From the IMG/VR virus record IMGVR_UViG_3300037010_001286, positions 1 to 64,000 of that record: a stretch of DNA of 64,000 bases; one strand, given 5' to 3'. Under the pieces are notes generated by a model that saw only the letters and a list, made by a program, of their open reading frames with translations, did no database searches and was not told the DNA's origin. Origin of the DNA: a virus. Positions within the stretch are counted from its first letter, which is position 1, and each line of letters opens with the position of its first letter. Below are positions 6,718 through 38,339 of the stretch, piece after piece. The position numbers and the translations under genes were made by a program.

Positions 6718-6819
6718 TTATGAGGTGTCCCAAGACCTATTATAGTATTATCCTTTAGGGGTTTTACTAACTATAAAAAGTTAGACTATCTAACTAATTA
6801 AATTATAAAGGTGTTTAAA

Positions 6820-11064: not shown

Positions 11065-11139
11065 AGGGTAATACAATAATAGGTCTTGGGACACCCCTTA
11101 GAAACCTCATAAAATAGGCTTTCAGTTTTCTTTAAGATT
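11065..11139 (+). repeat. 75-bp dispersed repeat, copy A
   Basis: Reverse complement of 34689-34763 with 3 mismatches; partial copy at 6714-6754. Confidence 0.9.
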
Positions 11140-24570: not shown

Positions 24571-25794
24571 ATGAACTTTGAAAAGTTATCACTAATAACT
24601 ATATTACAACGAAAAGACCCTACACTACTCCAAACATTAAGTGTACACCACTTTAAAAAACCTGCTCATAAAACGCTTTTTAAAGCACTCATAAGCTATA
24701 ACAAACAATTTAGTAAAATCCCTACTGTTGATATATTATCATCTGCCATACAGACTCAAATGGACGCTGATAAAGCATCTATATACGTTTCTATGCTAGA
24801 GTCGTTCAAAGAATATGATGGAGAACTTCCATCCTCTGAAGAAATTATAAAGAACCTTGATGATGCTTATCTTATTGCTAATGTGGATGCTCATATTGAG
24901 CAATTAGTTGAAGCCGCTAAATCAAAAGATATTGAAACAGTAAAAAGTTTACTCAGTAAATTGGACAATTCCGTATCAACTAGTTCCAAAAAGCCTGAAA
25001 ATATCCTTGATGTAACTTATGAACCCTCTAAAATTCGTACAATAGACTCTTGTATGGAGTCTATGAGAGCGAATAATCTTAAAATGGGAGGATTAGTACT
25101 AATTGGAGGTACTTCGGGAGGCGGAAAAAGTATTTATACCTTGAAACAATTAATGTACTCCTTCTCAGTTGATAGAGTTCCTACTTGTTTATTAAATATG
25201 GAATTAGGACTTGATGAAACTATTGCACGAATGTATTCCCAGGCAACAGGAAAAGATTTTTCTGAGGTATATGGAAATACAAATCCATCAGTTGTAGCTA
25301 GTGTAAACTCTTGGAAACAAAAATACTTCTCAGGTGATATTGAGTTTAGAATTAAATCTATCAGATATTCTATTAGTGAAATTGAACATACTATTAGAAC
25401 TCAAGCAGCTCAAGGCATAGTGCTATTTGGTATTGATTATCTACAAATTGCAGATTTAGATGTATCTACTGAAGAGTGGAAACAATTATCTAAGTTAGTA
25501 AGACTCCTACACCAACTTACTCAAGAATTACAGATAGTAATTATAAGTCCTGTTCAAATTAACTTCAGTGACACAAAAATAAAAGATAATGAGCTTCAAG
25601 TAACTATCCGAGGCTCAAGAGAGTTAGAATTTAGCTCATCCGTTTTCTTATTTATTTATCAAACCCAAGAAGAATATAAAGAGAATGTTTGTAGAATTTT
25701 TACTGTTAAGGCACGTAATGCTAAGAAACAAATTTATCTAACTCAGACCCTTTTCTCACAGATGAATTTTATTGATACAGGGGTAGTATTATAA
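24571..25794 (+). CDS. dnaB: Replicative DNA helicase (DnaB family)
   Basis: GGTSGGGKS, LNMEL, IDYLQI, SPVQIN, RGSRELE, KARN. Confidence 0.92.
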   Translation: MNFEKLSLITILQRKDPTLLQTLSVHHFKKPAHKTLFKALISYNKQFSKIPTVDILSSAIQTQMDADKASIYVSMLESFKEYDGELPSSEEIIKNLDDAYLIANVDAHIEQLVEAAKSKDIETVKSLLSKLDNSVSTSSKKPENILDVTYEPSKIRTIDSCMESMRANNLKMGGLVLIGGTSGGGKSIYTLKQLMYSFSVDRVPTCLLNMELGLDETIARMYSQATGKDFSEVYGNTNPSVVASVNSWKQKYFSGDIEFRIKSIRYSISEIEHTIRTQAAQGIVLFGIDYLQIADLDVSTEEWKQLSKLVRLLHQLTQELQIVIISPVQINFSDTKIKDNELQVTIRGSRELEFSSSVFLFIYQTQEEYKENVCRIFTVKARNAKKQIYLTQTLFSQMNFIDTGVVL

Positions 25795-25848: not shown

Positions 25849-26745
25849 ATGCTACGTGAACTAATATTAAATAAATTAGAAGTAGAGGGACGGAAGTGGA
25901 CTCCTAGCGGTAAAAACTTCATAATCACTCACTGCCTTAACCCTAATCATCATGATAAAAAGCCATCATTTGCCATTAATCTTGAGTCAGGATTTGGTAA
26001 ATGTTTTTCTTGCTCTTTCTCTGTCAATAAGAAATATTGGTTAGATGATATGCAAAATGATGAGGATGTAATTGATGAACTTATGAGAGCTTCATTATAT
26101 AATAAAATAGAGAAGTTATATGATACCAAGGACGTTAAAACTGCTCCAACTCTTTATATGCCCAGTGTTAGCAGACCAGTTGAGCCAGGTTGGAGAGGAC
26201 TTAATAAAGATACAATAGAAAAGTATCAATTATACATTTGTGAGTCAGGACACTTTCAAGATAGAGTTATATTCCCTATGTGGGATTACAAAGGTAACAC
26301 TGTTGCTTTTAATTCAAGAGCACTTAACACTCCTTTAGAAGGTATGCAAAAATATAAATATTCTAAAGGTTTATTTGTAAATGAATTGATATATCCCCCT
26401 ATTGATAAAGGTGTAAATTATGTAGTACTTGTTGAGGGAATTATGGATGCTCTTCTTATGAAGCAAGATGGCATCAATGCAATTTTTAACTTTGGGATAA
26501 ATATGACTTTCGGTAATAAGAAAATCTCCGAGTTACTTAAAAATGGTATTGAAACTATTTATATTGGGTTAGATAATGATACTGCTGGTATTGAAGGAAC
26601 TGTAAAGTACCTTACAAGTAGCCTTTCAGATTATTTTGAAATTAAACACGCTAGAATGTTTAAAGGTCTTGTACCTTACTATATGAGTGGTTGCAAAGAC
26701 TATGGTGAATTTAAAGAAAAGGAACTTAATGACTATAACAAATGA
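25849..26745 (+). CDS. DNA primase (Zn finger plus TOPRIM)
   Basis: CLNPNHHDKKPS...CFSC; VEGIMDAL; LDNDTAG. Confidence 0.92.
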   Translation: MLRELILNKLEVEGRKWTPSGKNFIITHCLNPNHHDKKPSFAINLESGFGKCFSCSFSVNKKYWLDDMQNDEDVIDELMRASLYNKIEKLYDTKDVKTAPTLYMPSVSRPVEPGWRGLNKDTIEKYQLYICESGHFQDRVIFPMWDYKGNTVAFNSRALNTPLEGMQKYKYSKGLFVNELIYPPIDKGVNYVVLVEGIMDALLMKQDGINAIFNFGINMTFGNKKISELLKNGIETIYIGLDNDTAGIEGTVKYLTSSLSDYFEIKHARMFKGLVPYYMSGCKDYGEFKEKELNDYNK

Positions 26746-27157: not shown

Positions 27158-28570
27158 TTAGAATGAGTCCTCGAAAGGTAGACTCATCTGCTCTCCTTTA
27201 ATTAAATCATAATTTAGTTTAAAAGATATTTCCCCATTCCCTGTAATAATTTTATACTTATGTAAAGTTATAGAAAAGTCCTCTTTTACCTCTTTAGTAA
27301 GTATGAAATCAATGTTATAATATTGTGCCTTTGCTCTAAAGTACATGTAACACGAACTACATAACCCCTTCACATTAGTCTTTGTTATAGCACCACAACA
27401 TTTACACATAAATACTCCTGCACCTGATACATCGGATATTCTACTTCTAACTATATTATCTCCTAACTTAATGTCAGTTACAGTTATAAATCGGTTATCT
27501 AAACCTTTATCAATAAAATCTTCATCAATATTACGATAGTATCTTTCTCCTGTACTAAGAACTAAACCAATAGGCATATAATCATCATCTAAAATATAGT
27601 CTGATACCTTTTCGACCCGGTTTTCAACTCTAAAAAGTACCTTTATTAGACCATTTGAGAACACTAATAGGTTATTCTCTAGGATTTTGGGAATTATTTG
27701 ACTAAACTCATTAGCGTTATTTAAAAGGATATTTTGAGTGTGTCTAATCTCGATATAGTTAAATTCACTCTCAGGAAAGTATTTTTTCATACTAAAATCA
27801 AAGTCAGATAAGTTTACATCAACATTCCCTCTATATAAGTTCAAAATACTTTTATAATCTTTTGATAAACAAATAGGAACTAATTGCTTACCGTGTCTAC
27901 GATTAGCTTTCTTACTAAATATAAATATACACCCAAAGTTATTATAGTGAAAGTTATTTATAAAGTAGTCACGTACAAGCTTATTAGATAGATTACTTTT
28001 AATGCTATTACCACGTTTAATGATATAGTATAGCTTAGACTTCTTACGACAACTTTTAGGTATATTTACCAAAACTGCTGGAAATTTAGCATTAGAAAAA
28101 TCGAAAGACCTTGAAATTCCTTCTAAATGTTCTTCCATATACTCATCTAAGTGGGTAGGGAGTTTTATATATGTACTAAATAATGTACTTAATTCATGTA
28201 AATTCTCAAGGGAATTTAATAAAAACTCAACACCAAGTTTTTCCATAATAGACTTATTGAAAATAGAAGCTATAATTTGTTGATGATTTACGGACATTCT
28301 TTTAAGTTCTACCCTAGCAGCTGCTAAGTTATCTTCTTGTAACCAATAATATACTTTTCCTATATTATCTAACAGAGGTAAATTTTCGGTATTCTTATTT
28401 GGAACAATACTTACATTAAATTTTATTGGGGAGTGGATAGTTAAGGAGATGATAACCTCAAGTAACTCTTTATTCTCAGGGGAGGATTTATAAAATTCTA
28501 TGAATTTCTTTGCCCCTAAGTTAGGCAAAGAGTTTTTAATTAATAGAATTAGATTAGCAAGTTCATCCAT
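27158..28570 (-). CDS. Hypothetical protein, degenerate ligase-like body plus C-terminal Zn finger
   Basis: N-terminus like phage ligase DNA-binding domain; no KxDG; CKCC...CSSC. Confidence 0.5.
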   Translation of the reverse strand: MDELANLILLIKNSLPNLGAKKFIEFYKSSPENKELLEVIISLTIHSPIKFNVSIVPNKNTENLPLLDNIGKVYYWLQEDNLAAARVELKRMSVNHQQIIASIFNKSIMEKLGVEFLLNSLENLHELSTLFSTYIKLPTHLDEYMEEHLEGISRSFDFSNAKFPAVLVNIPKSCRKKSKLYYIIKRGNSIKSNLSNKLVRDYFINNFHYNNFGCIFIFSKKANRRHGKQLVPICLSKDYKSILNLYRGNVDVNLSDFDFSMKKYFPESEFNYIEIRHTQNILLNNANEFSQIIPKILENNLLVFSNGLIKVLFRVENRVEKVSDYILDDDYMPIGLVLSTGERYYRNIDEDFIDKGLDNRFITVTDIKLGDNIVRSRISDVSGAGVFMCKCCGAITKTNVKGLCSSCYMYFRAKAQYYNIDFILTKEVKEDFSITLHKYKIITGNGEISFKLNYDLIKGEQMSLPFEDSF

Positions 28571-29126
28571 CTTCGACCTCAAAATAATCTTTCATGTGGA
28601 GTAGGCAGGTAGTTATAATACGTTTAACTTTAGCACGACTAAAACCAACTAACTCACTGATTTTAACTACACTATCCTGTAATATAAAATAATCGTACAG
28701 GATACGATGTTCTAATGGCGTTAAGCTTTCTAAATATGTAGAAAACTCTTCAGCACACTGTAAACGTACTATTTCATCATCTATATCACTTAAACTATGA
28801 TCTACAAACTCTTCTTCTAAGAGACCAGCAGAAGTAAATGAATGCATCTCTCTATTAGATTGAACTGACCCAGGACGCACAGTAGAGCTTCCTTTAGGAC
28901 TATTTCTACCAATATAATCTAAAATAGCACCGGAAACACGTCTATAAGCATACCCCATATAAAAATTATTCTTACTTTCCTCATATTTTTCTCGTGCTTT
29001 AACGTAGGCCAGTAAACCCTCTTGAACTAAATCATCTAGCTCTACATAGTAGTTAGAACGAAGAAAATACTTATAAGCAATCTTCTCTACAAATTCATAG
29101 TCTTTCTTTGGAATTTCTTCTATCAC
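28563..29126 (-). CDS. RNA polymerase sigma factor, FliA/WhiG-like
   Basis: DDLVQEGLLAYVKAREKY...YAYRRVSGAILDY (region 2); LTPLEHRIL...ISELVGFSRAKV (region 4). Confidence 0.88.
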   Translation of the reverse strand: MIEEIPKKDYEFVEKIAYKYFLRSNYYVELDDLVQEGLLAYVKAREKYEESKNNFYMGYAYRRVSGAILDYIGRNSPKGSSTVRPGSVQSNREMHSFTSAGLLEEEFVDHSLSDIDDEIVRLQCAEEFSTYLESLTPLEHRILYDYFILQDSVVKISELVGFSRAKVKRIITTCLLHMKDYFEVEDG

Positions 29127-30808
29127 TTTAGACCCCTTTGAGAGTTAATTGAAGTTAAGCTAGTAACCCCTTTATCTTTTGTAAAAGTAATAACTGTATC
29201 AAACATATTTATAGGCAGTTCTTCATGGTGTGTTATTACATATACAGCCTTATTCTCACGTATAATCTCTAAGAACTTAGTAACCATACTAATACCCTCA
29301 TCATCTAATACTCCAAACAGCTCGTCAATTACTAAGTAATTAGTAGAAATACCTGTTACTTGCTCTAAAGTAAACAAGGTTGTAATTAGAAGAACTAGAG
29401 AAACTCTAGTACGCTCTCCCGCAGATAAATCATTAAATCCTTTTAAGATACCTCTATCATAAAATTCATATTCTAACTTACCATTTTTAACAGATACTTT
29501 AATGTCGATTGTAAAATCAGTTTTATCTATTAGGTCTTTAAGCACAGTAACGAATACTTTTCTAAATTTATTAAGATACTCATTAGTAAGTGTTCCATTT
29601 TTTATAAAAAGTAAACACTCCTCAACTAATGCAAGTTTCTTATCTAAAGCATCCATGTCTGAAACAATATCACTTAATTCTTTTTCAATTTCATCCCGTT
29701 GTTTAACAATCTTGTCATATGCAGAGTTCTGCTCTGCAACTACCAGTAATTTTGATTTTAAAATGTTAATTTTTCCTAAAATAGCAGCCTCATCATCAGC
29801 CAAACTTTGTTTTACTCTAGTACACTCATCGTCTAAGGTAGATATAGTAGAGGTAAGATTACTAATGAAATTTTCTTTTGTACTTTTTTCCTCTATTAAT
29901 TTGGATAAATCAAGATTTAAAGTATCTTTATCAAGAGTCCCAACTGCCCCACAAGTAGGACAAATATTAGAAGAATTAATTAGCCTCTCTAACTCAACTA
30001 TCTTATAGTTTATAAGAGATAACTCAGTATTTAAAGCACTACGCTCCTCTTTGAGTCCTACTATTTTAAGTCTCGTAGCCTCTACTCCAGCATGTTTAGG
30101 GCTACGAGTGACTGCTAAAAGAGACTTAGTTAGAGTATTAATATTTTCTTCTATTACTGTAACATTTACTTTCTGAAATGAACTAAGTAAGGAGATATTT
30201 TTCTCACAATTTCTCATCTTAGTTATTAGAATAACTCTAAGATTTTTAAGTTCTTTTCGCTCCTCTTTTAATATAGCCTCAGATTGCTGAATAGAGGCTA
30301 TATTAAAAAATTGAAAAAGTATATTATCCTTATTTGTAGTATCCAAAATTGCTTGGAGGGTACTTTGACTAATATAAGTCAAAGCAGAAAATGTATCAAA
30401 GTCTAACCCAAGTATATCTTTAATTTGTTTAAGTTGATTTGGAATACCTTTTACTGAAATATCTACTCCATTTTTAAGTACGGTAATTTTATTAGTATTT
30501 CTGTCATTTGTAACTGTATAGTTATCTTTTTCATTGAGAGTAAAATCTAAGCTAATACTATATGGTTTTCCAGTAATAGAATTATTTACACTCTCAATAG
30601 TACCTTTAGGGTTTTTAATATTCTTGTTAAATAGCCCTTGGTAAATACTAGAAAAGGTAGCAGTCTTTCCTGAGCCATTAGAACTCTTAAAAGAACTTTC
30701 AATATCATTATTGATACCTATAATATAATGAAGCCCCTTCTCTACAGGTAAAGTAATACTACCAACTGAGAAGAAATTATTTACACTTATCTTTTTAATC
30801 TCTAACAT
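29123..30808 (-). CDS. sbcC: SbcC/Rad50-like recombination ATPase
   Basis: NGSGKT, CPTCG hook, LSAGE, IDE, ITH. Confidence 0.93.
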   Translation of the reverse strand: MLEIKKISVNNFFSVGSITLPVEKGLHYIIGINNDIESSFKSSNGSGKTATFSSIYQGLFNKNIKNPKGTIESVNNSITGKPYSISLDFTLNEKDNYTVTNDRNTNKITVLKNGVDISVKGIPNQLKQIKDILGLDFDTFSALTYISQSTLQAILDTTNKDNILFQFFNIASIQQSEAILKEERKELKNLRVILITKMRNCEKNISLLSSFQKVNVTVIEENINTLTKSLLAVTRSPKHAGVEATRLKIVGLKEERSALNTELSLINYKIVELERLINSSNICPTCGAVGTLDKDTLNLDLSKLIEEKSTKENFISNLTSTISTLDDECTRVKQSLADDEAAILGKINILKSKLLVVAEQNSAYDKIVKQRDEIEKELSDIVSDMDALDKKLALVEECLLFIKNGTLTNEYLNKFRKVFVTVLKDLIDKTDFTIDIKVSVKNGKLEYEFYDRGILKGFNDLSAGERTRVSLVLLITTLFTLEQVTGISTNYLVIDELFGVLDDEGISMVTKFLEIIRENKAVYVITHHEELPINMFDTVITFTKDKGVTSLTSINSQRGLK

Positions 30809-31784
30809 CTTTTAAAACTCCTCTCAAATAATCTTCTAAATCTTGTGATATTGGGTAATTGTTTGTTTTAAGTAGAAGGAGTAAAGTATCTATAACCTCA
30901 GTTTTTTTATGATTATACAAATCTAGTACTAAATCTTCAAATTCCTCAGTATTAGCAATCTCTAGAGGCTTAAACTCAAAATTATCTACTAAAGGGTTCT
31001 TCATTAACTTTGAAGCTACTTCAGTACTAGGACTACTCTGAACAATAACTTTATAAATATGTCTTGAGTCTAAAGATAACCCAGTAAGAACTTCCTCAGC
31101 AGTAGTTGTATGTAATATTTTACAAGGTAAATCTAATCTCTCCCAAGTATATGAAAGCTCTTTATCCAAGTTAATTAAGAAATATCCACAGTCTCTAGGT
31201 AAATCAAAATGTATACTATATGGACTGGATGGGTATGTTACATTTGGAAATGGAGCATAAGAGTGGTGTATATCCCCTACAAAGCAGTGGTTAAATATCT
31301 TAGAAACTTCACCAACATCAATTTCTCCCTTAATAAAAGTACCAAAATTAGCTCTAAAATGAGAGAATAATATACTTTGTCTTTGTGAGCTAATATCTTT
31401 CTTTTTACTAGCAATAGTTTTACATTTTAAATGTGATACAAAGTATAAATCATAATTAGGAATTTTTAATACAACATCCTCCAAGTATGTAAAGCCAACT
31501 GCTGGGATAAAATCAAATACTGTCTTATGGTCTGATAAATTTTCGTGGTTACCTGAAATTACCCATACAATTTTTTCAGCATCTCTTAGAATTTGTATGC
31601 CCTCATAAAATACTTTTAATTCCTCTAAGGATACCTTAGCAGTATCAAAAGTATCTCCACCTAAAATAATGTGAGATGCTGGACATTCTGATAGTAAAGT
31701 AAAAAGTTGAAGAAAGCGATTAGAAGCCCAGGTAGGGCTATGACGTAAGCTTAGGTGAATGTCACTAACAAAAGCCACCTGCAT
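30795..31784 (-). CDS. sbcD: SbcD/Mre11-like nuclease
   Basis: SDIH, GGDTFD, GNHE, GDIH. Confidence 0.93.
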   Translation of the reverse strand: MQVAFVSDIHLSLRHSPTWASNRFLQLFTLLSECPASHIILGGDTFDTAKVSLEELKVFYEGIQILRDAEKIVWVISGNHENLSDHKTVFDFIPAVGFTYLEDVVLKIPNYDLYFVSHLKCKTIASKKKDISSQRQSILFSHFRANFGTFIKGEIDVGEVSKIFNHCFVGDIHHSYAPFPNVTYPSSPYSIHFDLPRDCGYFLINLDKELSYTWERLDLPCKILHTTTAEEVLTGLSLDSRHIYKVIVQSSPSTEVASKLMKNPLVDNFEFKPLEIANTEEFEDLVLDLYNHKKTEVIDTLLLLLKTNNYPISQDLEDYLRGVLKDVRD

Positions 31785-32011
31785 TAAAGAGCCTCTAAGT
31801 AGGAAATAACGTCCTTACCACACTTTAGAGTTGGTAAAACTGAGTCAGGGATAGCAATATCATATAGCTCTTCAATACCCATAACTGCTGATAATAAGTC
31901 TAAAGAGTCTACACGATAAGAAGATAGAGGTACGTAAATGCTAAAATCTCTTGGGTGGACATGAGCCACCCTAGTTAGTTCTGCTATTACATCATCAACA
32001 TTTATTACCAT
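31784..32011 (-). CDS. acpP: Acyl carrier protein
   Basis: 75 aa, acidic, VDSLDLLSAVMGIEELYDIAIPD with phosphopantetheine Ser motif. Confidence 0.85.
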   Translation of the reverse strand: MVINVDDVIAELTRVAHVHPRDFSIYVPLSSYRVDSLDLLSAVMGIEELYDIAIPDSVLPTLKCGKDVISYLEAL

Positions 32012-32020
32012 TATAAATCC

Positions 32021-32821
32021 TTAAAATTGAATATCATCCTCATCAATATCAATCTGAGGTAGACCATCAGTAGTAGGGGTAGTACCATTACTACCTCCAG
32101 CGTTTGTAGCCTCAATCCATTTATTAAATTTCTTAATAGCATCAGAAGTTACTGCAACGTGTTTTGCAATCTCAGCAGCGTCACGAGGGACTGCCTTCTT
32201 AATATCAAAGCAGAAAGCTGGTTGGAAGTTTGTAGGAACTTTAATACTGCCAACCTCAAAATTCCACTTGAGAACTGGAGTATCTATATTAAGATTATCA
32301 CAAGCTTCTCCAAATTTATGGTAACTAGTACCATGTAGATAATGTAGGTAAGGAGCATACGAACCATCTTTTTGTTTAACCATCAATAACAAGATGTTAT
32401 TAAATGTAACTTTTTTACCTTCATCTTTAAGCTGTTTAATAGTTTTCTTTGACTTCTTATCTATCATACTTGGAGCATCATAAGGTGAGAAGTAAATGTC
32501 AGTAATAATTGTTGTACTAAATGTAGCTACATCATAGTGACTTGATTGGTACACAGAACCTGCAACAAAAAACTCAAGGGTACTACCTAAATCTTCCCCT
32601 TTCTCTTTAACAGTAAGAGTTTTTTTATCAATCACCCAACCACTAATAAAGTTACCTTTTTTAACACCAGCATCAACCAGTACATCCTCTTTATCATAAT
32701 TCATTTTAAGAATAGGGAAAGGCATACCGCCCGACGCAGCACCCCCTGATACTTTTGCCATTGTTTTTGCAGTTTCTGCATCAAACCCCATTGCGATTAG
32801 TTCTTCGTAAGTGTAATTCAT
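32021..32821 (-). CDS. Putative single-stranded DNA-binding protein
   Basis: Acidic-Phe tail LPQIDIDEDDIQF, own strong promoter, recombination cluster context. Confidence 0.6.
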   Translation of the reverse strand: MNYTYEELIAMGFDAETAKTMAKVSGGAASGGMPFPILKMNYDKEDVLVDAGVKKGNFISGWVIDKKTLTVKEKGEDLGSTLEFFVAGSVYQSSHYDVATFSTTIITDIYFSPYDAPSMIDKKSKKTIKQLKDEGKKVTFNNILLLMVKQKDGSYAPYLHYLHGTSYHKFGEACDNLNIDTPVLKWNFEVGSIKVPTNFQPAFCFDIKKAVPRDAAEIAKHVAVTSDAIKKFNKWIEATNAGGSNGTTPTTDGLPQIDIDEDDIQF

Positions 32822-32878
32822 GTTTCGGCCTTTATGTCAGTTTTTTAGAGTTACACGATTAGGTGTTCGTCTATAAGT

Positions 32879-32907
32879 ATTGTACTAGAAATAGAAAGTA
32901 ATGTCAA
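32879..32907 (-). promoter_or_regulatory. sigma70 promoter for SSB-ACP-SbcDC-sigma operon
   Basis: TTGACA-17bp-TACAAT on minus strand. Confidence 0.85.
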
Positions 32908-32959
32908 TAGATTATGAAAAGAATTTTGAAGAACTTGCAGGAAACCTGCAAGAATTTAA

Positions 32960-33559
32960 TTATGCTTCAGGGGTGGTAGTGTTAGTAGAAGGAGCTGTAG
33001 GCTCTACAGGAGGAATAGTATCTTTATCTTCCTCCCAATTAAAGAATTTTTTTATTTCCTCTGCTAAAACTTCTACTTCAGATAAAAGCTCAGATACACC
33101 TTCAGGATTTTCTAATATATAATCAAAAGACTCATAAGTATCTAAAATAGTCTCAGACGTGTGTTCATCAATACCTAAGGGAACACTTGGACGAACAATA
33201 CGAACTTTGAAAGAGCCTGGAAAAATCTCCTCAATAAATCTCCAGTCAGGGATAATTACAAAGTAGTTAGCTGGAAGATCTTCAATCTTTTTTAGAAGTA
33301 GGTCATACCATACAGTATCCCCAAAAATAGGCTTCATTGCTTCAGTACCAAGACGTTGTAACATAACTCTATATTCATTATCATTATTTTTACGAATATC
33401 TAGTTCTTCTAAAGTAATACCTAAGGTCTCTGCTAAAATTTGTTTTAGAGGCTCAGCAAAACTAAGTATAGTAGCATAAGGAAGCTTATCTTTTAATAGA
33501 CGAGCAACTGTGTCTTTTCCATGTCGTTTTTTACCTGATAATTGAATAATATGTGCCAT
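32960..33559 (-). CDS. Deoxynucleoside monophosphate kinase
   Basis: SGKKRHGKDT, SFAEPLK, LQRLGTE, PDWRF, HTSE. Confidence 0.9.
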   Translation of the reverse strand: MAHIIQLSGKKRHGKDTVARLLKDKLPYATILSFAEPLKQILAETLGITLEELDIRKNNDNEYRVMLQRLGTEAMKPIFGDTVWYDLLLKKIEDLPANYFVIIPDWRFIEEIFPGSFKVRIVRPSVPLGIDEHTSETILDTYESFDYILENPEGVSELLSEVEVLAEEIKKFFNWEEDKDTIPPVEPTAPSTNTTTPEA

Positions 33560-33736
33560 TAATAACATCCTTCTACACAACTAAGTGTATATAATTTAAT
33601 TAGAACTAAAATAAAAGCAAACATTAAAGCTAACCCAACACCATTATTAACCTCAAAGGTACCATCAAGCCAGTCAGTAATACGTGTATATTTTAGGAAA
33701 ATCTTATCTCCTAAATTCTTTAGATATTTTTTCATA

Positions 33737-34648
33737 TTAATCCTTCATTTTAAAAAATAATTTATCTACGGGAGATAAAGGACAAACCTTACTATACTCC
33801 TGTAAGAGTGTCATAGAAAACTCATCATAAGAGTTGCCTAAAGGTCTAGTAGAGAACTTTACCAAGAACTCTTTCTGTTCTTCTTCAGATAGATCAGCTA
33901 AGGTTACAGGCTTAAATAGCTTGTAGTTTAGCTCTATCATATCATCATAACTAACAGACTCATCAGGAAGGCATATACCATTAGAGTTAGAGTCAAGAAG
34001 TCCTCTAATCTTAAATTTAAGGGTATTAAAGTCAGAATACTTAGGGTAAAGTCTAATAAAACTCTTAACCCCAAACTTGTGAAGTCCTTTTACATTTTCT
34101 TTAGCAGACCCTGCAAATACCTGTAGATAAAATACCCCTAAAGGGTCTACCTCATATTCCTCTACACAATTTTTAGAAGTAATAAAACGATTACGTTTTA
34201 CATTTAGCATTCTAATATTATCAGCAAATAGAAAACTAGCCCAGTCTTTATCTGAACTCAATAGAGTTACTGTGGTATCAGTATTAGCAAATCTACTAGC
34301 AATTATTGAGCCAACGTCATCTGCCTCAATACCACTAATATCAATAACATTACCAAAATAAGAAAGCCAAGGTATAGAATTTCGATATTCTTGTTCAAAT
34401 ATACGCTTTCTTTCTTGCTCTTGGGGAGTAGCTTTCTTATCATTCTCTTTTCTATGAGATTTATATGCTGGATATATTAGGGAGCGTTTTGTTTTACCTA
34501 TATCAACTGCAAATACAATTTTAGAGGGTTTTACATTATTACTTCTACATATTCGGGAAATCTCAGAAAAAACACCTAGTAGTGGTCTATGATTGTGGTG
34601 TTGATTAAAACACATCAATTTATAGTCTATAACTAAAATTTCAGCCAC
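33737..34648 (-). CDS. 5'-3' exonuclease/flap endonuclease
   Basis: YPAYKSHR, GIEADDV, SSDKDW. Confidence 0.9.
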   Translation of the reverse strand: MAEILVIDYKLMCFNQHHNHRPLLGVFSEISRICRSNNVKPSKIVFAVDIGKTKRSLIYPAYKSHRKENDKKATPQEQERKRIFEQEYRNSIPWLSYFGNVIDISGIEADDVGSIIASRFANTDTTVTLLSSDKDWASFLFADNIRMLNVKRNRFITSKNCVEEYEVDPLGVFYLQVFAGSAKENVKGLHKFGVKSFIRLYPKYSDFNTLKFKIRGLLDSNSNGICLPDESVSYDDMIELNYKLFKPVTLADLSEEEQKEFLVKFSTRPLGNSYDEFSMTLLQEYSKVCPLSPVDKLFFKMKD

Positions 34649-34688
34649 TGTGTCCTCCTTAAAGTTGAAAAAGCATTATATAACCTAT

Positions 34689-34763
34689 AATCTTAAAGAA
34701 AACTGAAAGCCTATTTTACGAGGTTTCTTAGAGGTGTCCCAAGACCTATTATTGTATTACCCT
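34689..34763 (-). repeat. 75-bp dispersed repeat, copy B
   Basis: Inverted copy of 11065-11139, upstream of a TATAAT on minus strand. Confidence 0.9.
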
Positions 34764-34840
34764 CTAAGAACTTTAGAGAAATTTTCCTATAACTTTAAGG
34801 TTACTTTTAAGAAACTTTTTGTACAATATTACTTCTAAAT

Positions 34841-34978
34841 ACGATTATATATATGAAGATATTGTAGTGCCGTCCCAGGTACTTGTTAAACAATAGAGCC
34901 TTCTTTTGAAGGCACTACAATATGTTTATCTAGGATTGATAAGTACCTGGGAAGCCTTGTTAATCTTCTTATAATCAT
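34841..34978 (+). promoter_or_regulatory. Late-promoter motif plus structured leader of rep
   Basis: ACGATTATA at 34841; interleaved inverted repeats 34859-34871/34911-34923 and 34873-34889/34936-34952. Confidence 0.65.
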
Positions 34979-35001
34979 AATTAAATCTGAATGGATTAAC
35001 T

Positions 35002-36084
35002 ATGAATGAGAGTAAATTTCTTCTTACTTACTTAGATAAGTATCATAAAATTCAATGTTCAAATATAAAAACAGATAAATATACCTTTAAAAAAGCAGAA
35101 GAGGCACTTGAATTTAACTTTATTAGATTTGGTAACTCTTATTTTATTCCAGCTATTTCAATTGATATTGATTTTAAATCTGATATTTACCGAATAATTT
35201 ATGACAATAACCTACCTGAACCTACTTTCGTAGTTCATACAGACCGTGGAACTCATATTCACTGGTTTTTAGAAGTTCCTATTAGTACAGCTAATAAATT
35301 CCAGTTAAATTATCTTAATAATCTTATTAATTATCTTCAAGGTCTATTTGGTGGTGATAAATATGCAACTACTAGAAGTGCTGGGCGTATTTGGAGAAAT
35401 CCTATTAAGTTCCCTCATATTTTTTCAGGAAATCTTGTATCTTTTTCTGAATTTACCCTCCCAAAAAAAGAAAAAGTCCAACAAATTGACACTCAATATA
35501 CTAGCAGAAATAAGTATAAAAAAATTTTAAATATAGATTTTACTAGTGTTATAGAGGGAACTCGTCACCATACTCTTTTTGAGTATGGACGTGCCTATGC
35601 TTATACTACTGGTATAACTAACCCACATGCAGAGATTGAAGCTAAAAATGCTTTAATGCCAAATCCATTATCAACTATAGAGGTTAAATCAATAGGTAAC
35701 TCTATAGATAAATTTATGACTACAAAATATAAAAAGAGTACATACAATAGCTCTCAAAAAACAGTAGAATTTAATAGAAAGATAGCTAAAGTACAATCTG
35801 ATAAGAAACTTACTGAGATAGTTAATAAAATACTTATAAGTATTTCTCCTATAACTTTAGCAAAAAACCTAACAGCTCGTAAAGCTGCTAAGGTACTTAA
35901 TATAAGTAAAAATACTTGGACAAAATATGCAAAAGTATTGATTAGTTCTATTAAAGAGTCCTTACTAACTATAAAAGCTCCATTAAGATACTTACCAATT
36001 TCTACTAATTTATACGTAGAAAGAAGTATACCTATGTATAATACTATATATTCTAGCAGTATAGTACTAAATAATTCAACATAA
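35002..36084 (+). CDS. ColE2-type plasmid replication initiator (Replicase, PriCT-1, HTH)
   Basis: SIDID, LPEPT, GTHIHWFL, WRNP, GTRHHTLFE, NPLSTIEVKSI, C-terminal HTH TARKAAKVLNISKNT. Confidence 0.8.
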   Translation: MNESKFLLTYLDKYHKIQCSNIKTDKYTFKKAEEALEFNFIRFGNSYFIPAISIDIDFKSDIYRIIYDNNLPEPTFVVHTDRGTHIHWFLEVPISTANKFQLNYLNNLINYLQGLFGGDKYATTRSAGRIWRNPIKFPHIFSGNLVSFSEFTLPKKEKVQQIDTQYTSRNKYKKILNIDFTSVIEGTRHHTLFEYGRAYAYTTGITNPHAEIEAKNALMPNPLSTIEVKSIGNSIDKFMTTKYKKSTYNSSQKTVEFNRKIAKVQSDKKLTEIVNKILISISPITLAKNLTARKAAKVLNISKNTWTKYAKVLISSIKESLLTIKAPLRYLPISTNLYVERSIPMYNTIYSSSIVLNNST

Positions 36085-36131
36085 TCTATACTCAATTGTA
36101 TATAAAATAATTTTAAGGTGGTATCTATAAA

Positions 36132-36605
36132 GTGGTATTTATTGGAATTGACTCTTCTTCTACCAATACAGCAATTGTTGTATTAGATTATAATAGAAAT
36201 TTACTTGAGTTTACTCTTATTTCCCCTACAAATAAAGATTTAAGAGTTAGAGGTGCAGAAACTGTATCTTCAGTCCTATCATTTATTCAAAAATTTTCTA
36301 CAAAAAGCTCTCAGATTGTTATAGAAGCTCCTGCATTTATGGCTAATGGAAAAGTAGCAGATTTAAGTATGATTGTTGGTGGAATTTTTTATGGATTGAT
36401 AGATATAGGATATGATTGTTTATTAATTCCCCCATCACAACATAAAAGTCGTTTTACTGGAAGAGGAAGGATTACAAAAGGTGATACTATACTTTGCCTA
36501 CCTGAGAGTGTTTTAAATAGTTTTAAAGGTACTTATAAGAAACTTGATGATTTAGCAGATGCTTACTCTCTAGCTACATACTTATTACCAGCTACTTCTA
36601 TCTAA
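36132..36605 (+). CDS. ruvC: RuvC-like Holliday junction resolvase
   Basis: IGIDSS, VIEAP, DDLADAYSL. Confidence 0.85.
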   Translation: MVFIGIDSSSTNTAIVVLDYNRNLLEFTLISPTNKDLRVRGAETVSSVLSFIQKFSTKSSQIVIEAPAFMANGKVADLSMIVGGIFYGLIDIGYDCLLIPPSQHKSRFTGRGRITKGDTILCLPESVLNSFKGTYKKLDDLADAYSLATYLLPATSI

Positions 36606-36671
36606 TCTTTTTACTATAAATTACCTTAGAATGATTTGTAACAATTTGTTGGAATAATGGAGTATCTAACT

Positions 36672-36692
36672 TAGAGGGATAATATCCCTCTA
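36672..36692. terminator. Hairpin between convergent operons
   Basis: TAGAGGGATA-a-TATCCCTCTA. Confidence 0.7.
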
Positions 36693-36697
36693 TACTA

Positions 36698-36742
36698 TCA
36701 CTTTTTAGGTTTAGGTGTTTTACCTTTAGGTGCACAGGCCAT
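36698..36742 (-). CDS. 14-aa basic peptide MACAPKGKTPKPKK
   Basis: AGGAG RBS upstream, last ORF before terminator. Confidence 0.5.
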   Translation of the reverse strand: MACAPKGKTPKPKK

Positions 36743-36795
36743 ATACTCTCCTTTACTTTATATTTAATAAAATATATTATATAAATATTTGCTTA

Positions 36796-37263
36796 TTAAT
36801 TTATAGCAAAAAAGCTACCTCTTTTATCTTTGAACCACATTGCAAAAGCCATAAAATCAGGTGTTGTTATAGGCATTTTTGTACCATTACTAAATCTAAT
36901 TATGGTATTTATAGTGGTATCTGTCAATGTATTTGTGAGTGTTGCAGCTATATAACCTACCGTTAGTGCAGTAATAGTAGACTGTGCATCTTCATCTAGT
37001 GGTACTTGGTATGTTACTCCGTTAAGAGTATAAGGTAATCCTATAGCTTTTAACTGTGATGAGGTTAGCTCAACAGGAGGTTTAGCAACCCATTTATTTC
37101 CATCAAATATATAATCATCAGATGGTTTATCAGGAATTAAAACATAATCAGTATTGGGTCCAATAACTACTTCAGTAAGTTCTTGTGTATCCTCATCAAA
37201 TACACTCTCTATCAGATTCGGTTGAGTTAGTGCAAAGTTTCCAGTTTTTTCATTATAGTACAT
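36796..37263 (-). CDS. Tail fibre assembly/chaperone-like protein
   Basis: PDKPSDDYIFDGNKWV; follows fibre gene. Confidence 0.6.
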   Translation of the reverse strand: MYYNEKTGNFALTQPNLIESVFDEDTQELTEVVIGPNTDYVLIPDKPSDDYIFDGNKWVAKPPVELTSSQLKAIGLPYTLNGVTYQVPLDEDAQSTITALTVGYIAATLTNTLTDTTINTIIRFSNGTKMPITTPDFMAFAMWFKDKRGSFFAIN

Positions 37264-38339
37264 TATATGACCTCTACAGTATTAATTCTACACATCCAAT
37301 GGATAGTAGTTGATGCAGCACCTGTTACAGATACTGATAAAGCCCCATTTGTTGTATCTGCTGATATAGAAACAGCACTTGCTGTTATCCAACTCTCTGA
37401 ATCACCAAATGTTAAGTTAATAGTAGGAGTTCCTACTAGAGTAGTAGATGAGGCATTTGCACCACGTTTAATTAACCCAGTAGTATTCCACTGTCCTGCT
37501 TTACCTGTTCCAGTATTTATAGCAACTATTTCAATATCAAAGGAGACTGCATTATTATTTTGAAGTGTACATTGATTAGTTGCAGAAACTGCATTAGTGT
37601 CTGATTTTAATATAGTAGCTGTAGCGTCTGTTGTTATAGCACCAAGTCCGAGTTGACCAAGTTGATATGCGCCATTTATGCCACTGAAAGGTGTTCCAAT
37701 TACTGCTCTACCTGATATACCATTTGTGTGACTTCTAAACCCCATTGCTATAGAAGCAGTACCTGAGGCTACGTTTGAGTAACCCATTGCTATAGAAGAA
37801 CCCCCCGATGCAATATTATTATTCCCCATAGCTACAGATGCGAAATTAGATGATGTATTTGCGTACCCCAGCGATATAGAAGCAGTACTAGACGCAGTAT
37901 TGTTGTATCCTATTGCCACAGAGGAGTAACTAGATGATGTATTTGCATATCCCATCGATATAGAAGCACTACCGGATGAAATACTATTATATCCAGTAAC
38001 TATAGAATAAGGACCGGATGCTACTTGATTAGCACTGGTTCTATAAGTTTGCAAATCAATCGCACCAGTCCCTCTAACGTTTCCCCCTTTTGCTGTACCA
38101 TCAGGAATATTAGTGGATAGAGCACCTGAGCCTACATATACCCCATTATTATACATCATAGGCATTTGTAATATTAAATCAGTAGCAAACTGTGTACTAC
38201 CATAGTTTACTTCATCATCGTTGGTACCTATAAGTACAGCATCTCTCATCACCTGAGATGCACCTTGCCCTACTTTATAAGTTATCCTACTAGGACTTAT
38301 GACAGCCCCGTAGCTATTTCCCTCAATTCCTGAGTTCAT
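37263..38339 (-). CDS. Fibre/adhesin with YadA-head-like repeats
   Basis: 14-aa ASGxxSIAMGYxN repeats. Confidence 0.75.
   Translation of the reverse strand: MNSGIEGNSYGAVISPSRITYKVGQGASQVMRDAVLIGTNDDEVNYGSTQFATDLILQMPMMYNNGVYVGSGALSTNIPDGTAKGGNVRGTGAIDLQTYRTSANQVASGPYSIVTGYNSISSGSASISMGYANTSSSYSSVAIGYNNTASSTASISLGYANTSSNFASVAMGNNNIASGGSSIAMGYSNVASGTASIAMGFRSHTNGISGRAVIGTPFSGINGAYQLGQLGLGAITTDATATILKSDTNAVSATNQCTLQNNNAVSFDIEIVAINTGTGKAGQWNTTGLIKRGANASSTTLVGTPTINLTFGDSESWITASAVSISADTTNGALSVSVTGAASTTIHWMCRINTVEVI

What the first reader, a model, noticed from the sequence alone, without database searches (positions are those of the whole stretch)
35002..36605. Plasmid-type (ColE2) Rep primase-initiator plus RuvC in a phage with a full replisome
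Seen: a two-gene + strand island between minus-strand blocks, behind a late-type motif. The phage already encodes PolA, DnaB and primase, and no integrase, Par or repressor is visible in the window. Established: ColE2 Rep binds its origin and makes a primer for DNA polymerase I. Inference: a second, late replication mode using the phage PolA, a plasmid-like carrier state, or a domesticated plasmid gene. Together with the switch-like leader this is the strongest candidate for an undescribed system.
Basis: partly seen in the sequence, partly recalled or inferred. Interest (0 to 1): 0.7.

Follow-up and report, generated by a model that had tools for sequence, protein, structure and literature searches.

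The report
Plasmid-type initiator primase in phage
An uncultured virulent phage from a microbial mat carries, besides its normal primase, helicase and polymerase, an intact and long-inherited gene for a small-plasmid-style (ColE2-type) replication starter protein next to a DNA-junction-cutting enzyme; it is most likely the phage's own origin starter, an unusual but not unprecedented arrangement.

Summary
ORF 35002-36084 (+, 360 aa) and ORF 36132-36605 (+, 157 aa) form a two-gene + strand island between minus-strand blocks in a complete 82,148-bp phage genome with terminal repeats. The first protein is a very divergent but catalytically intact ColE2-Rep-type initiator primase (AEP domain + PriCT-1 + HTH). 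It misses Pfam's Replicase threshold itself (16.7 bits against 26), but its family, a profile comparison with a ColE2-type plasmid Rep (97.3%, E 2e-11), PDB 3vw4 and an AlphaFold model all agree. The second protein is a RuvC-like resolvase.

The gene is not a recent or decaying plasmid capture. It is intact and sits in the same place in every related phage locus with enough context. These phage Reps form their own clade apart from plasmid Reps. Three of four related phage records also carry DnaG-type primase and PolA. No integrase, serine recombinase, ParA, ParB or HTH_3 repressor was found in the whole genome, so a carrier state is unsupported.

Best reading (about 0.55): this is the phage's own origin-specific starter, feeding its PolA. 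A late second replication mode remains possible. The origin was not found: the conserved 29-mer upstream recurs four times and behaves like a promoter.

This scan has noted ColE2-type Reps in phages on other DNA (at least 17 genomes), including a probable relative.

The parts
35002..36084 (+). Rep-like gene, 360 aa: ColE2-Rep-type initiator primase (AEP + PriCT-1 + HTH)
   Evidence: ORF. Family hits to PF03090 and PF08708. hhalign against the pIGJC156 Rep 97.3%, E 2e-11. AF2 model pLDDT 86.4. Foldseek hits to AEP primases and 3vw4.
35002..35451 (+). AEP primase domain (about residues 1-150) with D55-x-D57, H85-x-H87, D119 and R132-N133-P134
   Evidence: Invariant or nearly invariant columns. 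The same motifs line up with five plasmid Reps. Foldseek 6zp9_A E 1.1e-5, RepB' 3h25_A.
35539..35736 (+). PriCT-1 domain (about residues 180-245; G186, R188, N216, S234 conserved)
   Evidence: Profile A1 against PDB 3vw4 (ColE2-P9 Rep DNA-binding domain) E 1.4e-4. PF08708 in 36 of 60 relatives. Foldseek 3vw4_B prob 1.00, 28% identity over 90 columns.
35848..35988 (+). C-terminal helix-turn-helix region (about residues 283-329; R293, K303, K308 invariant in A1)
   Evidence: Helices in the model. Aligned to the C-terminal HTH of the plasmid Rep. Weak HTH_17 hit, E 0.22. HTH families at E up to 0.001 in at most 6 of 60 relatives.
36132..36605 (+). RuvC-like Holliday junction resolvase, 157 aa
   Evidence: phrog_159 E 1.6e-17. 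D7, E65, D139, D140 and D143 invariant in 6 of 6.
34691..34771 (+). Conserved cassette: hairpin plus invariant 29-mer (34733-34761). One of four copies in the genome; probably a promoter or other expression signal
   Evidence: Copies at 6724+, 11067-, 34733+ and 67679+. Multi-copy in relatives G001 (5) and G002 (4). Always intergenic and mostly pointing at downstream genes.
34838..34849 (+). Late-type motif AATACGATTATA, 153 nt before the rep start codon
   Evidence: The same core lies before virion genes at 43897-, 45151-, 48313- and 59700-.
34855..34968 (+). Structured rep leader with two mutually exclusive long helices
   Evidence: RNA fold of 34840-35010: -51.9 kcal/mol, z -5.5, 0 of 200 shuffles as stable. 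Interleaved inverted repeats read. Studied by another report (e1-6114112).
36673..36691 (.). Palindromic hairpin between the convergent RuvC gene and the minus-strand virion block
   Evidence: Read from the sequence. Not called by the terminator scan.

Best explanation
The 360-aa protein is a divergent, catalytically intact member of the ColE2-Rep type of initiator primases: an archaeo-eukaryotic primase domain, then a PriCT-1 domain, then a helix-turn-helix. It is a vertically inherited core gene of a lineage of virulent, roughly 70-90 kb tailed phages from microbial mats and similar samples. It most likely acts as the phage's own origin-specific initiator. By analogy with ColE2 Rep (inferred), one protein binds a specific origin, opens it with PriCT-1 and HTH, and lays down a very short RNA primer. 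The phage's family-A polymerase extends that primer. The phage DnaB-like helicase and DnaG-type primase then take over fork progression and lagging-strand priming. The gene heads a small rightward operon with a RuvC-like resolvase, which cuts branched replication and recombination intermediates before packaging. In front of the operon lie two conserved promoter-like motifs, one shared with rIIA and one shared with virion genes, and a bistable leader, so the initiator's dose is probably tightly set. Shown here: family, domains, conserved catalytic residues, synteny, a clade separate from plasmid Reps, and co-occurrence with DnaG and PolA. Inferred: origin binding, primer hand-over to PolA, and timing.
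For: Family and architecture. The catalytic D-x-D, H-x-H and D motifs and the GRN/PL..E..SI.K PriCT-1 motifs are conserved across 60 relatives and line up with five ColE2-type plasmid Reps. Core-gene status: the rep ORF is intact in 7 of 7 related loci that hold the whole gene (L002-L006, L014, L015), and two more are cut by contig ends (L017, L018). FEN(-)|Rep(+) adjacency is kept in 6 of 7 loci with upstream context, L006 being the exception. Rep and RuvC are co-oriented in 5 of 6 loci with downstream context. Rep identity to relatives (36-51%) resembles that of its neighbours (FEN 33-50%). All 8 phage-context Reps sit in one 34-row clade (SH-aLRT 96), with 5 proteobacterial plasmid Reps on the other side of the tree. 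No other initiator was recognised among the 26 other window ORFs scanned against PHROGs. PolA, DnaB and DnaG are present here and in 3 of 4 related records. ColE2 Rep makes a primer for DNA polymerase I and unwinds DNA through PriCT-1 and HTH (passages read in PMC4538821 and PMC5862659).
Against: No origin was identified. There is no conserved DNA block at the 3' end of rep, where ColE2-type origins lie, and no paired CAGATAA repeats anywhere in the genome. The only conserved non-coding element near rep is multi-copy and looks like a promoter. The window protein fails Pfam's own Replicase threshold. The late-type motif and the pairing with RuvC would fit a late or recombination-linked role as well. 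GC skew shows no sign change at the rep locus. No expression data exist: no RNA holder was listed. Many early ORFs have no family hit, so another initiator could be hidden among them.
Confidence: 0.55

Rival explanations
1. One reading: a second, late replication mode. The phage starts replication another way early on (for example transcription-primed or recombination-primed). It makes Rep late, together with RuvC, to re-initiate or to switch to a mode that produces concatemers using the phage PolA.
For: A late-type motif (AATACGATTATA) lies 153 nt before rep, and the same core sits 31-43 nt before three virion genes. Rep shares an operon with RuvC, typically a late-needed function. The island lies at the border of the virion block.
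Against: The motif is not enriched overall (8 seen, about 6.5 expected), and its promoter function is untested. A second conserved motif shared with the rIIA upstream region lies further upstream, so expression need not be late only. No alternative early initiator was found.
Confidence: 0.2
2. A repair or repriming primase of the recombination module. On this reading the AEP restarts stalled or broken forks alongside FEN, SbcCD and RuvC, and does not fire an origin.
For: Neighbours are FEN, dNMP kinase, SbcCD and RuvC. AEP PrimPols do act in repriming (PMC8136793, search listing and abstract only).
Against: The PriCT-1 plus C-terminal HTH architecture, and the specific match to the ColE2 Rep origin-binding domain 3vw4, point to sequence-specific duplex binding. 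The closest characterised relatives are initiators, not repair enzymes.
Confidence: 0.12
3. The four copies of the 29-mer are Rep-binding sites, that is multiple origins, and not promoters. This can be combined with the best explanation.
For: The 29-mer is about the size of a ColE2-type origin. It is nearly invariant within the genome (0-2 mismatches in 4 copies). A version of it lies upstream of rep in all 6 phage loci compared. Two copies lie at the only two divergent junctions, one of them at the local minimum of cumulative GC skew near 68 kb.
Against: Copies sit before rIIA and other genes and point at downstream ORFs. They often follow terminator-like hairpins, and in G001 they form a divergent pair. 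All of this is promoter-like behaviour. GC skew is confounded with gene orientation.
Confidence: 0.15
4. Plasmid-like carrier state (phage-plasmid): Rep maintains the genome as an episome.
For: The Rep family is typical of small plasmids.
Against: No ParA, ParB, integrase, serine recombinase or HTH_3 repressor in the whole genome. The genome has rIIA/B and a full lytic-type replisome. There were 0 relatives in bacterial species genomes by the pattern scan.
Confidence: 0.04
5. A recently captured or decaying plasmid gene without function.
For: The window protein scores below Pfam's threshold. The rep gene's GC skew (-0.083) is unlike other + strand genes (+0.146, sd 0.094).
Against: The gene is intact, syntenic and catalytic-motif-conserved across relatives down to 36% identity. 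It belongs to its own clade. The best plasmid matches are only 22-24% identical.
Confidence: 0.02

Closest known systems
ColE2-P9 / ColE3 Rep and ColE2-type plasmid Reps (Pfam Replicase PF03090 + PriCT_1 PF08708 + HTH; PDB 3vw4); compared here with the Rep of E. coli plasmid pIGJC156
   Same: Same three-domain order. Shared D-x-D, H-x-H and G-x-D primase motifs, (R/K)NP, GRN..LF and PL..E..SI.K PriCT-1 motifs, and the C-terminal HTH. Stand-alone protein without a helicase domain. Partnered with a family-A polymerase, the host's Pol I for ColE2 and the phage's own PolA here.
   Different: About 22-24% identity only, and a separate clade. Encoded by an 82-kb virulent phage that also has DnaB and DnaG. 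No ColE2-type origin at the 3' end of the gene. The control region is a bistable leader with two promoter-like motifs, and the antisense RNA known for ColE2 (recalled) has not been shown here.
RepE/RepS and PrimHYQ families of the PrimPol-PV1 supergroup (Kazlauskas et al. 2018, PMC5862659), e.g. the primase of Bacillus phage IEBH
   Same: AEP + PriCT-1 + HTH architecture on mobile elements and phages, predicted to unwind the origin without a helicase domain (passages read).
   Different: Those elements lack a replicative helicase gene, whereas this phage has DnaB, DnaG and PolA. Sequence hits here go to Replicase (ColE2-type). I did not compare directly with those families.
Rhodothermus phage RM378, named in PMC4889955 as the only dsDNA virus of that 2016 survey with both AEP and DnaG primases
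   Same: Both primase types in one phage genome (passage read).
   Different: No sequence comparison was made here. In the present lineage the pairing is lineage-wide (3 of 4 related records).
RSF1010 RepB' primase (PDB 3h20/3h25) and cyanophage S-2L PrimPol (PDB 6zp9)
   Same: Best structural matches of the N-terminal AEP domain.
   Different: RepB' needs separate RepC initiator and RepA helicase proteins. S-2L PrimPol has another architecture. Identity is only 13-17%.

Membership tests
ColE2-Rep-type initiator primase (Pfam Replicase PF03090 family) | Score over Pfam's gathering threshold for PF03090 | tested here: not met
   The window protein scores 16.7 bits, E 0.0083, against a cut-off of 26. 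However, 39 of 60 relatives match at E up to 0.001, best 1.1e-17. Profile against the pIGJC156 Rep: 97.3%, E 2e-11 over 213 columns.
ColE2-Rep-type initiator primase | AEP catalytic motifs (D-x-D, s-x-H, h-D) present | tested here: met
   D55, D57 and D119 are invariant in 60 of 60 sequences. H85 and H87 are invariant in 12 of 12 close relatives. All are aligned with the same motifs of five plasmid Reps. AEP fold by Foldseek.
ColE2-Rep-type initiator primase | PriCT-1 domain following the primase domain | tested here: met
   PF08708 in 9 of 12 and 36 of 60 relatives. Profile hit to 3vw4 at E 1.4e-4. Foldseek 3vw4_B prob 1.00. The window protein alone gives no PF08708 hit.
ColE2-Rep-type initiator primase | C-terminal helix-turn-helix for origin binding | tested here: met
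   Helices 283-329 in the model. Aligned to the plasmid Rep HTH. The Pfam HTH_17 hit is only weak, E 0.22.
ColE2-type replicon | Cognate ~30-bp origin next to the 3' end of rep with CAGATAA-type repeats (as described in PMC3632715) | tested here: not met
   No conserved block 3' of rep in 6 loci. There are 0 pairs of CAGATAA within 30 nt in the genome. Caveat: the control plasmid pIGJC156 also shows only one exact copy, so the test is strict.
ColE2-type replicon | Site-specific synthesis of a very short primer RNA extended by a family-A polymerase | not testable with these tools
   A biochemical property. Only the presence of a phage PolA is shown.
ColE2-type replicon | Antisense RNA control of rep translation (recalled feature) | tested here: inconclusive
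   A structured leader is present. A terminator-like hairpin reads only on the minus strand at 34913-34898, and minus-strand promoter-like sites lie at 35091-35042, but promoter-like sites occur at chance level in this region (14 found, 15.5 expected). There are no RNA data.
RuvC-like Holliday junction resolvase | RNase-H-like fold family hit and the acidic catalytic tetrad | tested here: met
   phrog_159 E 1.6e-17. D7, E65, D139/D140 and D143 invariant in 6 of 6. Pfam gives only weak hits, DUF3882 E 0.0053 and Pox_A22 E 0.11.
Phage-plasmid / carrier-state element | Partition genes, or lysogeny control genes, together with Rep | tested here: not met
   PF02195, PF01656, PF00589, PF00239 and PF01381: 0 matches each in the 82,148-bp genome. 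The controls rang in 10-14 of 14 genomes.

The most novel reading that the evidence does not exclude
A whole lineage of virulent phages has replaced the usual phage initiation strategies with a single-protein, plasmid-style (ColE2-type) initiator primase that fires the phage origin for the phage's own PolA, while DnaB and DnaG run the forks. The near-invariant 29-mers (four per genome, two at the divergent junctions, one at the GC-skew minimum) would be its multiple origins, and the bistable leader would be the dose control. This would be a Pol I-type theta replicon scaled up to an 82-kb lytic virus.
Probability: 0.15. Interest if true: 0.65.

Novelty: new member of a known kind. Interest (0 to 1): 0.4.

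Why it matters
For most uncultured phages it is unknown how replication starts. Here a recognisable, probably active origin-specific primase is a stable core gene of a virulent phage lineage that also has a DnaG-type primase. A 2016 survey of dsDNA viruses found that combination in a single phage (PMC4889955, passage read). If this protein is the initiator, it gives a direct handle for finding the origin (bind-and-prime assays with one protein). It would also be an example of plasmid-style, family-A-polymerase-dependent initiation in a lytic virus. The family is barely represented in PHROGs: only 6 of 60 relatives hit any primase PHROG, and the window protein hits none. Annotation pipelines therefore leave it as hypothetical.

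Tried and rejected
DNA and protein BLAST of the island against 50,697 phage records gave no match.

Rfam on 34000-37500 gave 0 matches at E up to 1.

The pattern scan of bacterial species genomes found 26 pattern matches but 0 confirmed relatives.

The metagenome scan added only L014, L015, L017 and L018. L013 and L016 duplicate L003 and L006.

A search for a conserved origin 3' of rep found none. ColE2-type CAGATAA repeat pairs: none.

I noticed a short resemblance (a TATCAG-like core) between the relatives' 29-mer and the ColE2-type origin of pIGJC156 seen. I rejected it as too short to mean anything, and the window's own copy lacks it.

Sequencing runs: two DNA contig sets from microbial-mat metagenomes hold the stretch, one of which may be the source. 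No RNA holder was listed. Laying them showed strain diversity but only fragmentary contigs. I did not compute dN/dS from the 40 of 327 differences that were listed.

GC skew as an origin marker was rejected as decisive, because it is confounded with gene orientation.

The N4-like idea, suggested by the best PolA matches, was dropped: the 2078-aa ORF is a tape measure protein.

Papers PMC394617 and PMC1347323 (primary ColE2 work) are not held. ColE2 facts therefore rest on passages in reviews and on recall where marked.

None of the listed titles or abstracts describes one in a virulent phage, but I read only listings for most of them.
Full report
WHAT IS THERE

The window is bases 1-64000 of a complete 82,148-bp virus record with direct terminal repeats (116 bp). 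It comes from microbial-mat metagenomes.

Genes run on the + strand up to 27106 and on the - strand from 27158 to 34648. They return to the + strand for exactly two ORFs, 35002-36084 (360 aa) and 36132-36605 (157 aa), and then run on the - strand from 36796 into the virion block.

The phage encodes:
- rIIA and rIIB, an SF2 helicase and a family-A DNA polymerase (21142-23715)
- a DnaB-like helicase (24571-25794) and a DnaG-type primase (25849-26745)
- SbcCD and a sigma factor
- a FEN-type 5'-3' exonuclease and a dNMP kinase just left of the island
- a tape measure protein and tail proteins

WHAT THE FIRST GENE IS

Taken alone, the 360-aa protein is a borderline case. Pfam Replicase gives E 0.0083 and 16.7 bits against a cut-off of 26. 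It has no PriCT_1 hit and no primase or replication PHROG; its only PHROG match is phrog_31627 (unknown function, E 0.0032). It has no BLAST match among 50,697 phage records.

Its family settles the matter.
- Twelve close homologues and 106 cluster representatives out of 1.84 billion proteins were found.
- 9 of 12 and 39 of 60 match Replicase PF03090 (best 1.1e-17). 9 of 12 and 36 of 60 match PriCT_1 PF08708 (best 1.9e-12).
- A profile of the 12 hits the DNA-binding domain of ColE2-P9 Rep, PDB 3vw4, at E 1.4e-4.
- The same profile aligns with the Rep of the ColE2-type E. coli plasmid pIGJC156 at 97.3% probability, E 2e-11, over 213 columns.
- An AlphaFold2 model built on 60 sequences is confident (mean pLDDT 86.4).
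- Foldseek matches its N-terminal half to AEP primases: cyanophage S-2L PrimPol 6zp9 at E 1.1e-5, RSF1010 RepB', CAPP, NrS-1 and pRN1. It matches residues after about 180 to 3vw4_B (prob 1.00, 28% identity over 90 columns).

The catalytic residues are intact.
- D55, D57 and D119 are invariant in 60 of 60 sequences.
- H85 and H87 are invariant in the 12 close relatives.
- R132-N133-P134, G186 and R188 are invariant or nearly invariant.
- All of these columns line up with the corresponding motifs of five plasmid Reps.

The protein is thus a divergent but apparently active ColE2-Rep-type initiator primase with the domain order AEP, PriCT-1, HTH.

WHAT THE SECOND GENE IS

The second gene is a RuvC-like Holliday junction resolvase (phrog_159, E 1.6e-17). 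Its acidic residues D7, E65, D139/D140 and D143 are invariant in 6 of 6 aligned sequences.

IS IT A STRAY PLASMID GENE?

No. Scans of viral and metagenome contigs returned nine distinct related loci.
- The rep ORF is intact in all seven loci that hold the whole gene (L002-L006, L014, L015). Two more are cut by contig ends (L017, L018).
- The arrangement FEN(-) | Rep(+) is kept in L002, L003, L004, L005, L015 and L017.
- Rep and RuvC are co-oriented in L002, L003, L004, L005 and L015. Only L006 has them apart and on opposite strands.
- Rep is 36-51% identical to these relatives, much like its neighbours (FEN 33-50%), so it has diverged with the genome.
- Between Rep and RuvC, some relatives carry a PIN-PhoH gene (L002, L003), a GIY-YIG endonuclease (L003) or an unknown ORF (L005, L015).

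A 122-row tree was built with the quick IQ-TREE method, LG+G4 and SH-aLRT only. Rows outside 250-600 residues and exact duplicates were left out. It puts all 8 phage-context Reps in one 34-row clade (support 96), with five proteobacterial plasmid Reps in a 20-row group on the other side.

The best plasmid matches by tblastn are only 22-24% identical, at E 2e-3 or worse. No relative was confirmed in 185,579 bacterial and archaeal species genomes by the pattern scan.

DnaG-type primase and PolA are present in 3 of 4 related records. The fourth is a 57.6-kb fragment.

CARRIER STATE?

The whole genome gives 0 matches each for tyrosine integrase, serine recombinase, ParB_N, CbiA/ParA and HTH_3, while the controls rang in 10-14 of 14 genomes. 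Together with rIIA/B and a full replisome, this argues for a virulent phage. I give the phage-plasmid reading about 0.04.

THE SURROUNDINGS

The 353-nt gap before rep holds three elements.

(i) At 34733-34761 lies a 29-mer that occurs four times in the genome with 0-2 mismatches (0 expected by chance). The copies are at 6724+ (59 nt before rIIA), 11067-, 34733+ and 67679+.
- Three copies share about 75 nt including an upstream hairpin. In the fourth copy the hairpin is replaced by another, perfect one.
- A version of it lies upstream of rep in all six phage loci compared.
- It is multi-copy in relatives: 5 copies in G001, including a divergent pair, and 4 in G002. G003 and G004 gave 0 with that pattern.
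- Every copy examined is intergenic. Most point at a same-strand ORF within 600 nt, although three (L008 +, L010, L011) have none of 50 aa or more.
- This behaviour fits a phage-specific expression signal better than a Rep-specific origin. I keep the multi-origin idea at 0.15.

(ii) At 34838-34849 lies AATACGATTATA.
- The core ACGATTAT is not enriched in the genome (8 seen, about 6.5 expected).
- However, 5 of the 8 copies are intergenic and point at a nearby gene.
- TAACGATTATA sits 31-43 nt before three virion genes, including the tape measure gene.

(iii) From about 34855 to 34968 lies a leader with two mutually exclusive long helices. The fold of 34840-35010 gives -51.9 kcal/mol, z -5.5, and 0 of 200 shuffles are as stable. 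Another report of this scan deals with it.

No conserved DNA block follows rep, where ColE2-type origins lie, and there are no paired CAGATAA repeats. The origin remains unidentified.

HOW IT MOST LIKELY WORKS

Established for ColE2 (passages read in PMC4538821 and PMC5862659):
- Rep binds its origin.
- It makes a short RNA primer for DNA polymerase I.
- It can unwind duplex DNA through PriCT-1 and HTH without an NTPase.

This phage supplies its own family-A polymerase. No other initiator was recognised among the 26 other window ORFs scanned against PHROGs. I therefore infer that the protein is the phage's origin-specific initiator: it opens the origin and primes the leading strand for PolA. 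DnaB and DnaG then run the forks, and RuvC from the same operon resolves branches before packaging. Two upstream signals plus a bistable leader suggest tight dose control. T4 gene 49 is, by recall only, a precedent for a resolvase gene with early and late transcripts and a translational hairpin.

Confidence in the family assignment is about 0.9. Confidence in the initiator role is about 0.55.

The rivals are a late second mode (0.2), a repair or repriming primase (0.12), a carrier state (0.04) and a functionless capture (0.02).

AGAINST MY READING
- No origin was found.
- Pfam's own threshold is not met by the window protein.
- The skew profile shows no switch at rep. The rep gene itself has GC skew -0.083 although + strand genes average +0.146 (sd 0.094, n 43) and - strand genes -0.101 (n 36). 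The cumulative skew peaks at 27,181 and has a local minimum near 68,000.
- There are no expression data.
- Many early ORFs are unannotated.

COMPARISON AND NOVELTY

The protein works like, and by most tested features belongs to, the ColE2-Rep type. AEP-PriCT-1-HTH initiators of mobile elements, including one phage (IEBH), are in print (PMC5862659, passages read).

What is less usual is the setting:
- A virulent phage lineage carries both an AEP initiator and a DnaG primase. The 2016 survey of dsDNA viruses reports 'either AEP or DnaG', with RM378 as the only exception (PMC4889955, passage read). I could not see its supplements.
- PHROGs hardly covers the family: 6 of 60 relatives hit phrog_695, and the window protein hits no primase family.
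- BFVD holds many phage AEP-PriCT proteins, mostly fused to helicases, but no close full-length match (best TM on the query 0.43).

My literature searches listed no description of a ColE2-type Rep in a virulent phage, though I read only listings for most hits.

Within this scan the theme recurs. Nineteen notes in at least 17 genomes mention ColE2-type Reps in phages. One first-reader note on a probable relative has the same 29-mer, and a follow-up elsewhere concluded that such repeats follow transcription.

I class the finding as a new member of a known kind and score interest at 0.4.

Noticed in passing
window 6724-6752 (+), 11067-11095 (-), 34733-34761 (+); genome 67679-67707 (+): A near-invariant 29-mer with a hairpin just upstream, four copies per genome and multi-copy in relatives G001 (5) and G002 (4). 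It is probably a phage-specific promoter class shared by rIIA, rep and the rightmost + strand block. The minus-strand copy at 11067 points antisense into the early + strand block, where only a 54-aa ORF lies downstream.
   Followed up: partly
window 43897, 45151, 48313, 59700 (all -) and 34841 (+): (T/A)AACGATTATA lies 31-43 nt before three virion genes and further upstream of a fourth gene and of rep. It is a candidate late promoter element, perhaps read with the phage sigma factor (28563-29126).
   Followed up: partly
window 35002-36084: The rep gene has GC skew -0.083, typical of minus-strand genes (-0.101), although it is on the + strand (+ genes average +0.146, sd 0.094). RuvC is at +0.075. 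This could mean position-dependent (replication) skew or an old inversion.
   Followed up: no
window 34898-34913 (- strand): The small GC hairpin inside the rep leader is followed by a T-rich tail only on the minus strand (terminator-like). Weak minus-strand promoter-like sites lie at 35091-35042. An antisense RNA across the rep start, as in ColE2 control (recalled), is conceivable but untested and not obviously conserved in L002 or L003.
   Followed up: no
window 32021-32821 (-): A 266-aa protein without any Pfam or PHROG hit is the best conserved gene of the neighbourhood: 53-55% identity even in the distant relatives L005, L015 and L017, where FEN is 33%. It ends in an acidic tail (..DIDEDDIQF) of the kind seen in single-strand DNA-binding proteins (recalled), so it may be the phage SSB.
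   Followed up: no
L002 9137-10438; L003 3661-4920 and 4920-5519: Relatives carry a PIN-PhoH fusion gene (and in L003 a GIY-YIG endonuclease) between rep and ruvC. The window's phage has no PhoH homologue by blastp.
   Followed up: partly
G001 C1 64751-69327 (-): The PolA gene of relative G001 matches in three separate pieces (query 1-620, 618-667, 663-856), with about 1 kb between neighbouring pieces and one TAA inside the first match. This suggests inserted elements such as introns, inteins or homing endonucleases.
   Followed up: no
window 36626-36928: Summed contig depth in both mat metagenomes rises 3- to 10-fold here, with loose ends at 36686-36722. A short element around the hairpin after ruvC seems shared with other, more abundant genomes or repeated.
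   Followed up: no
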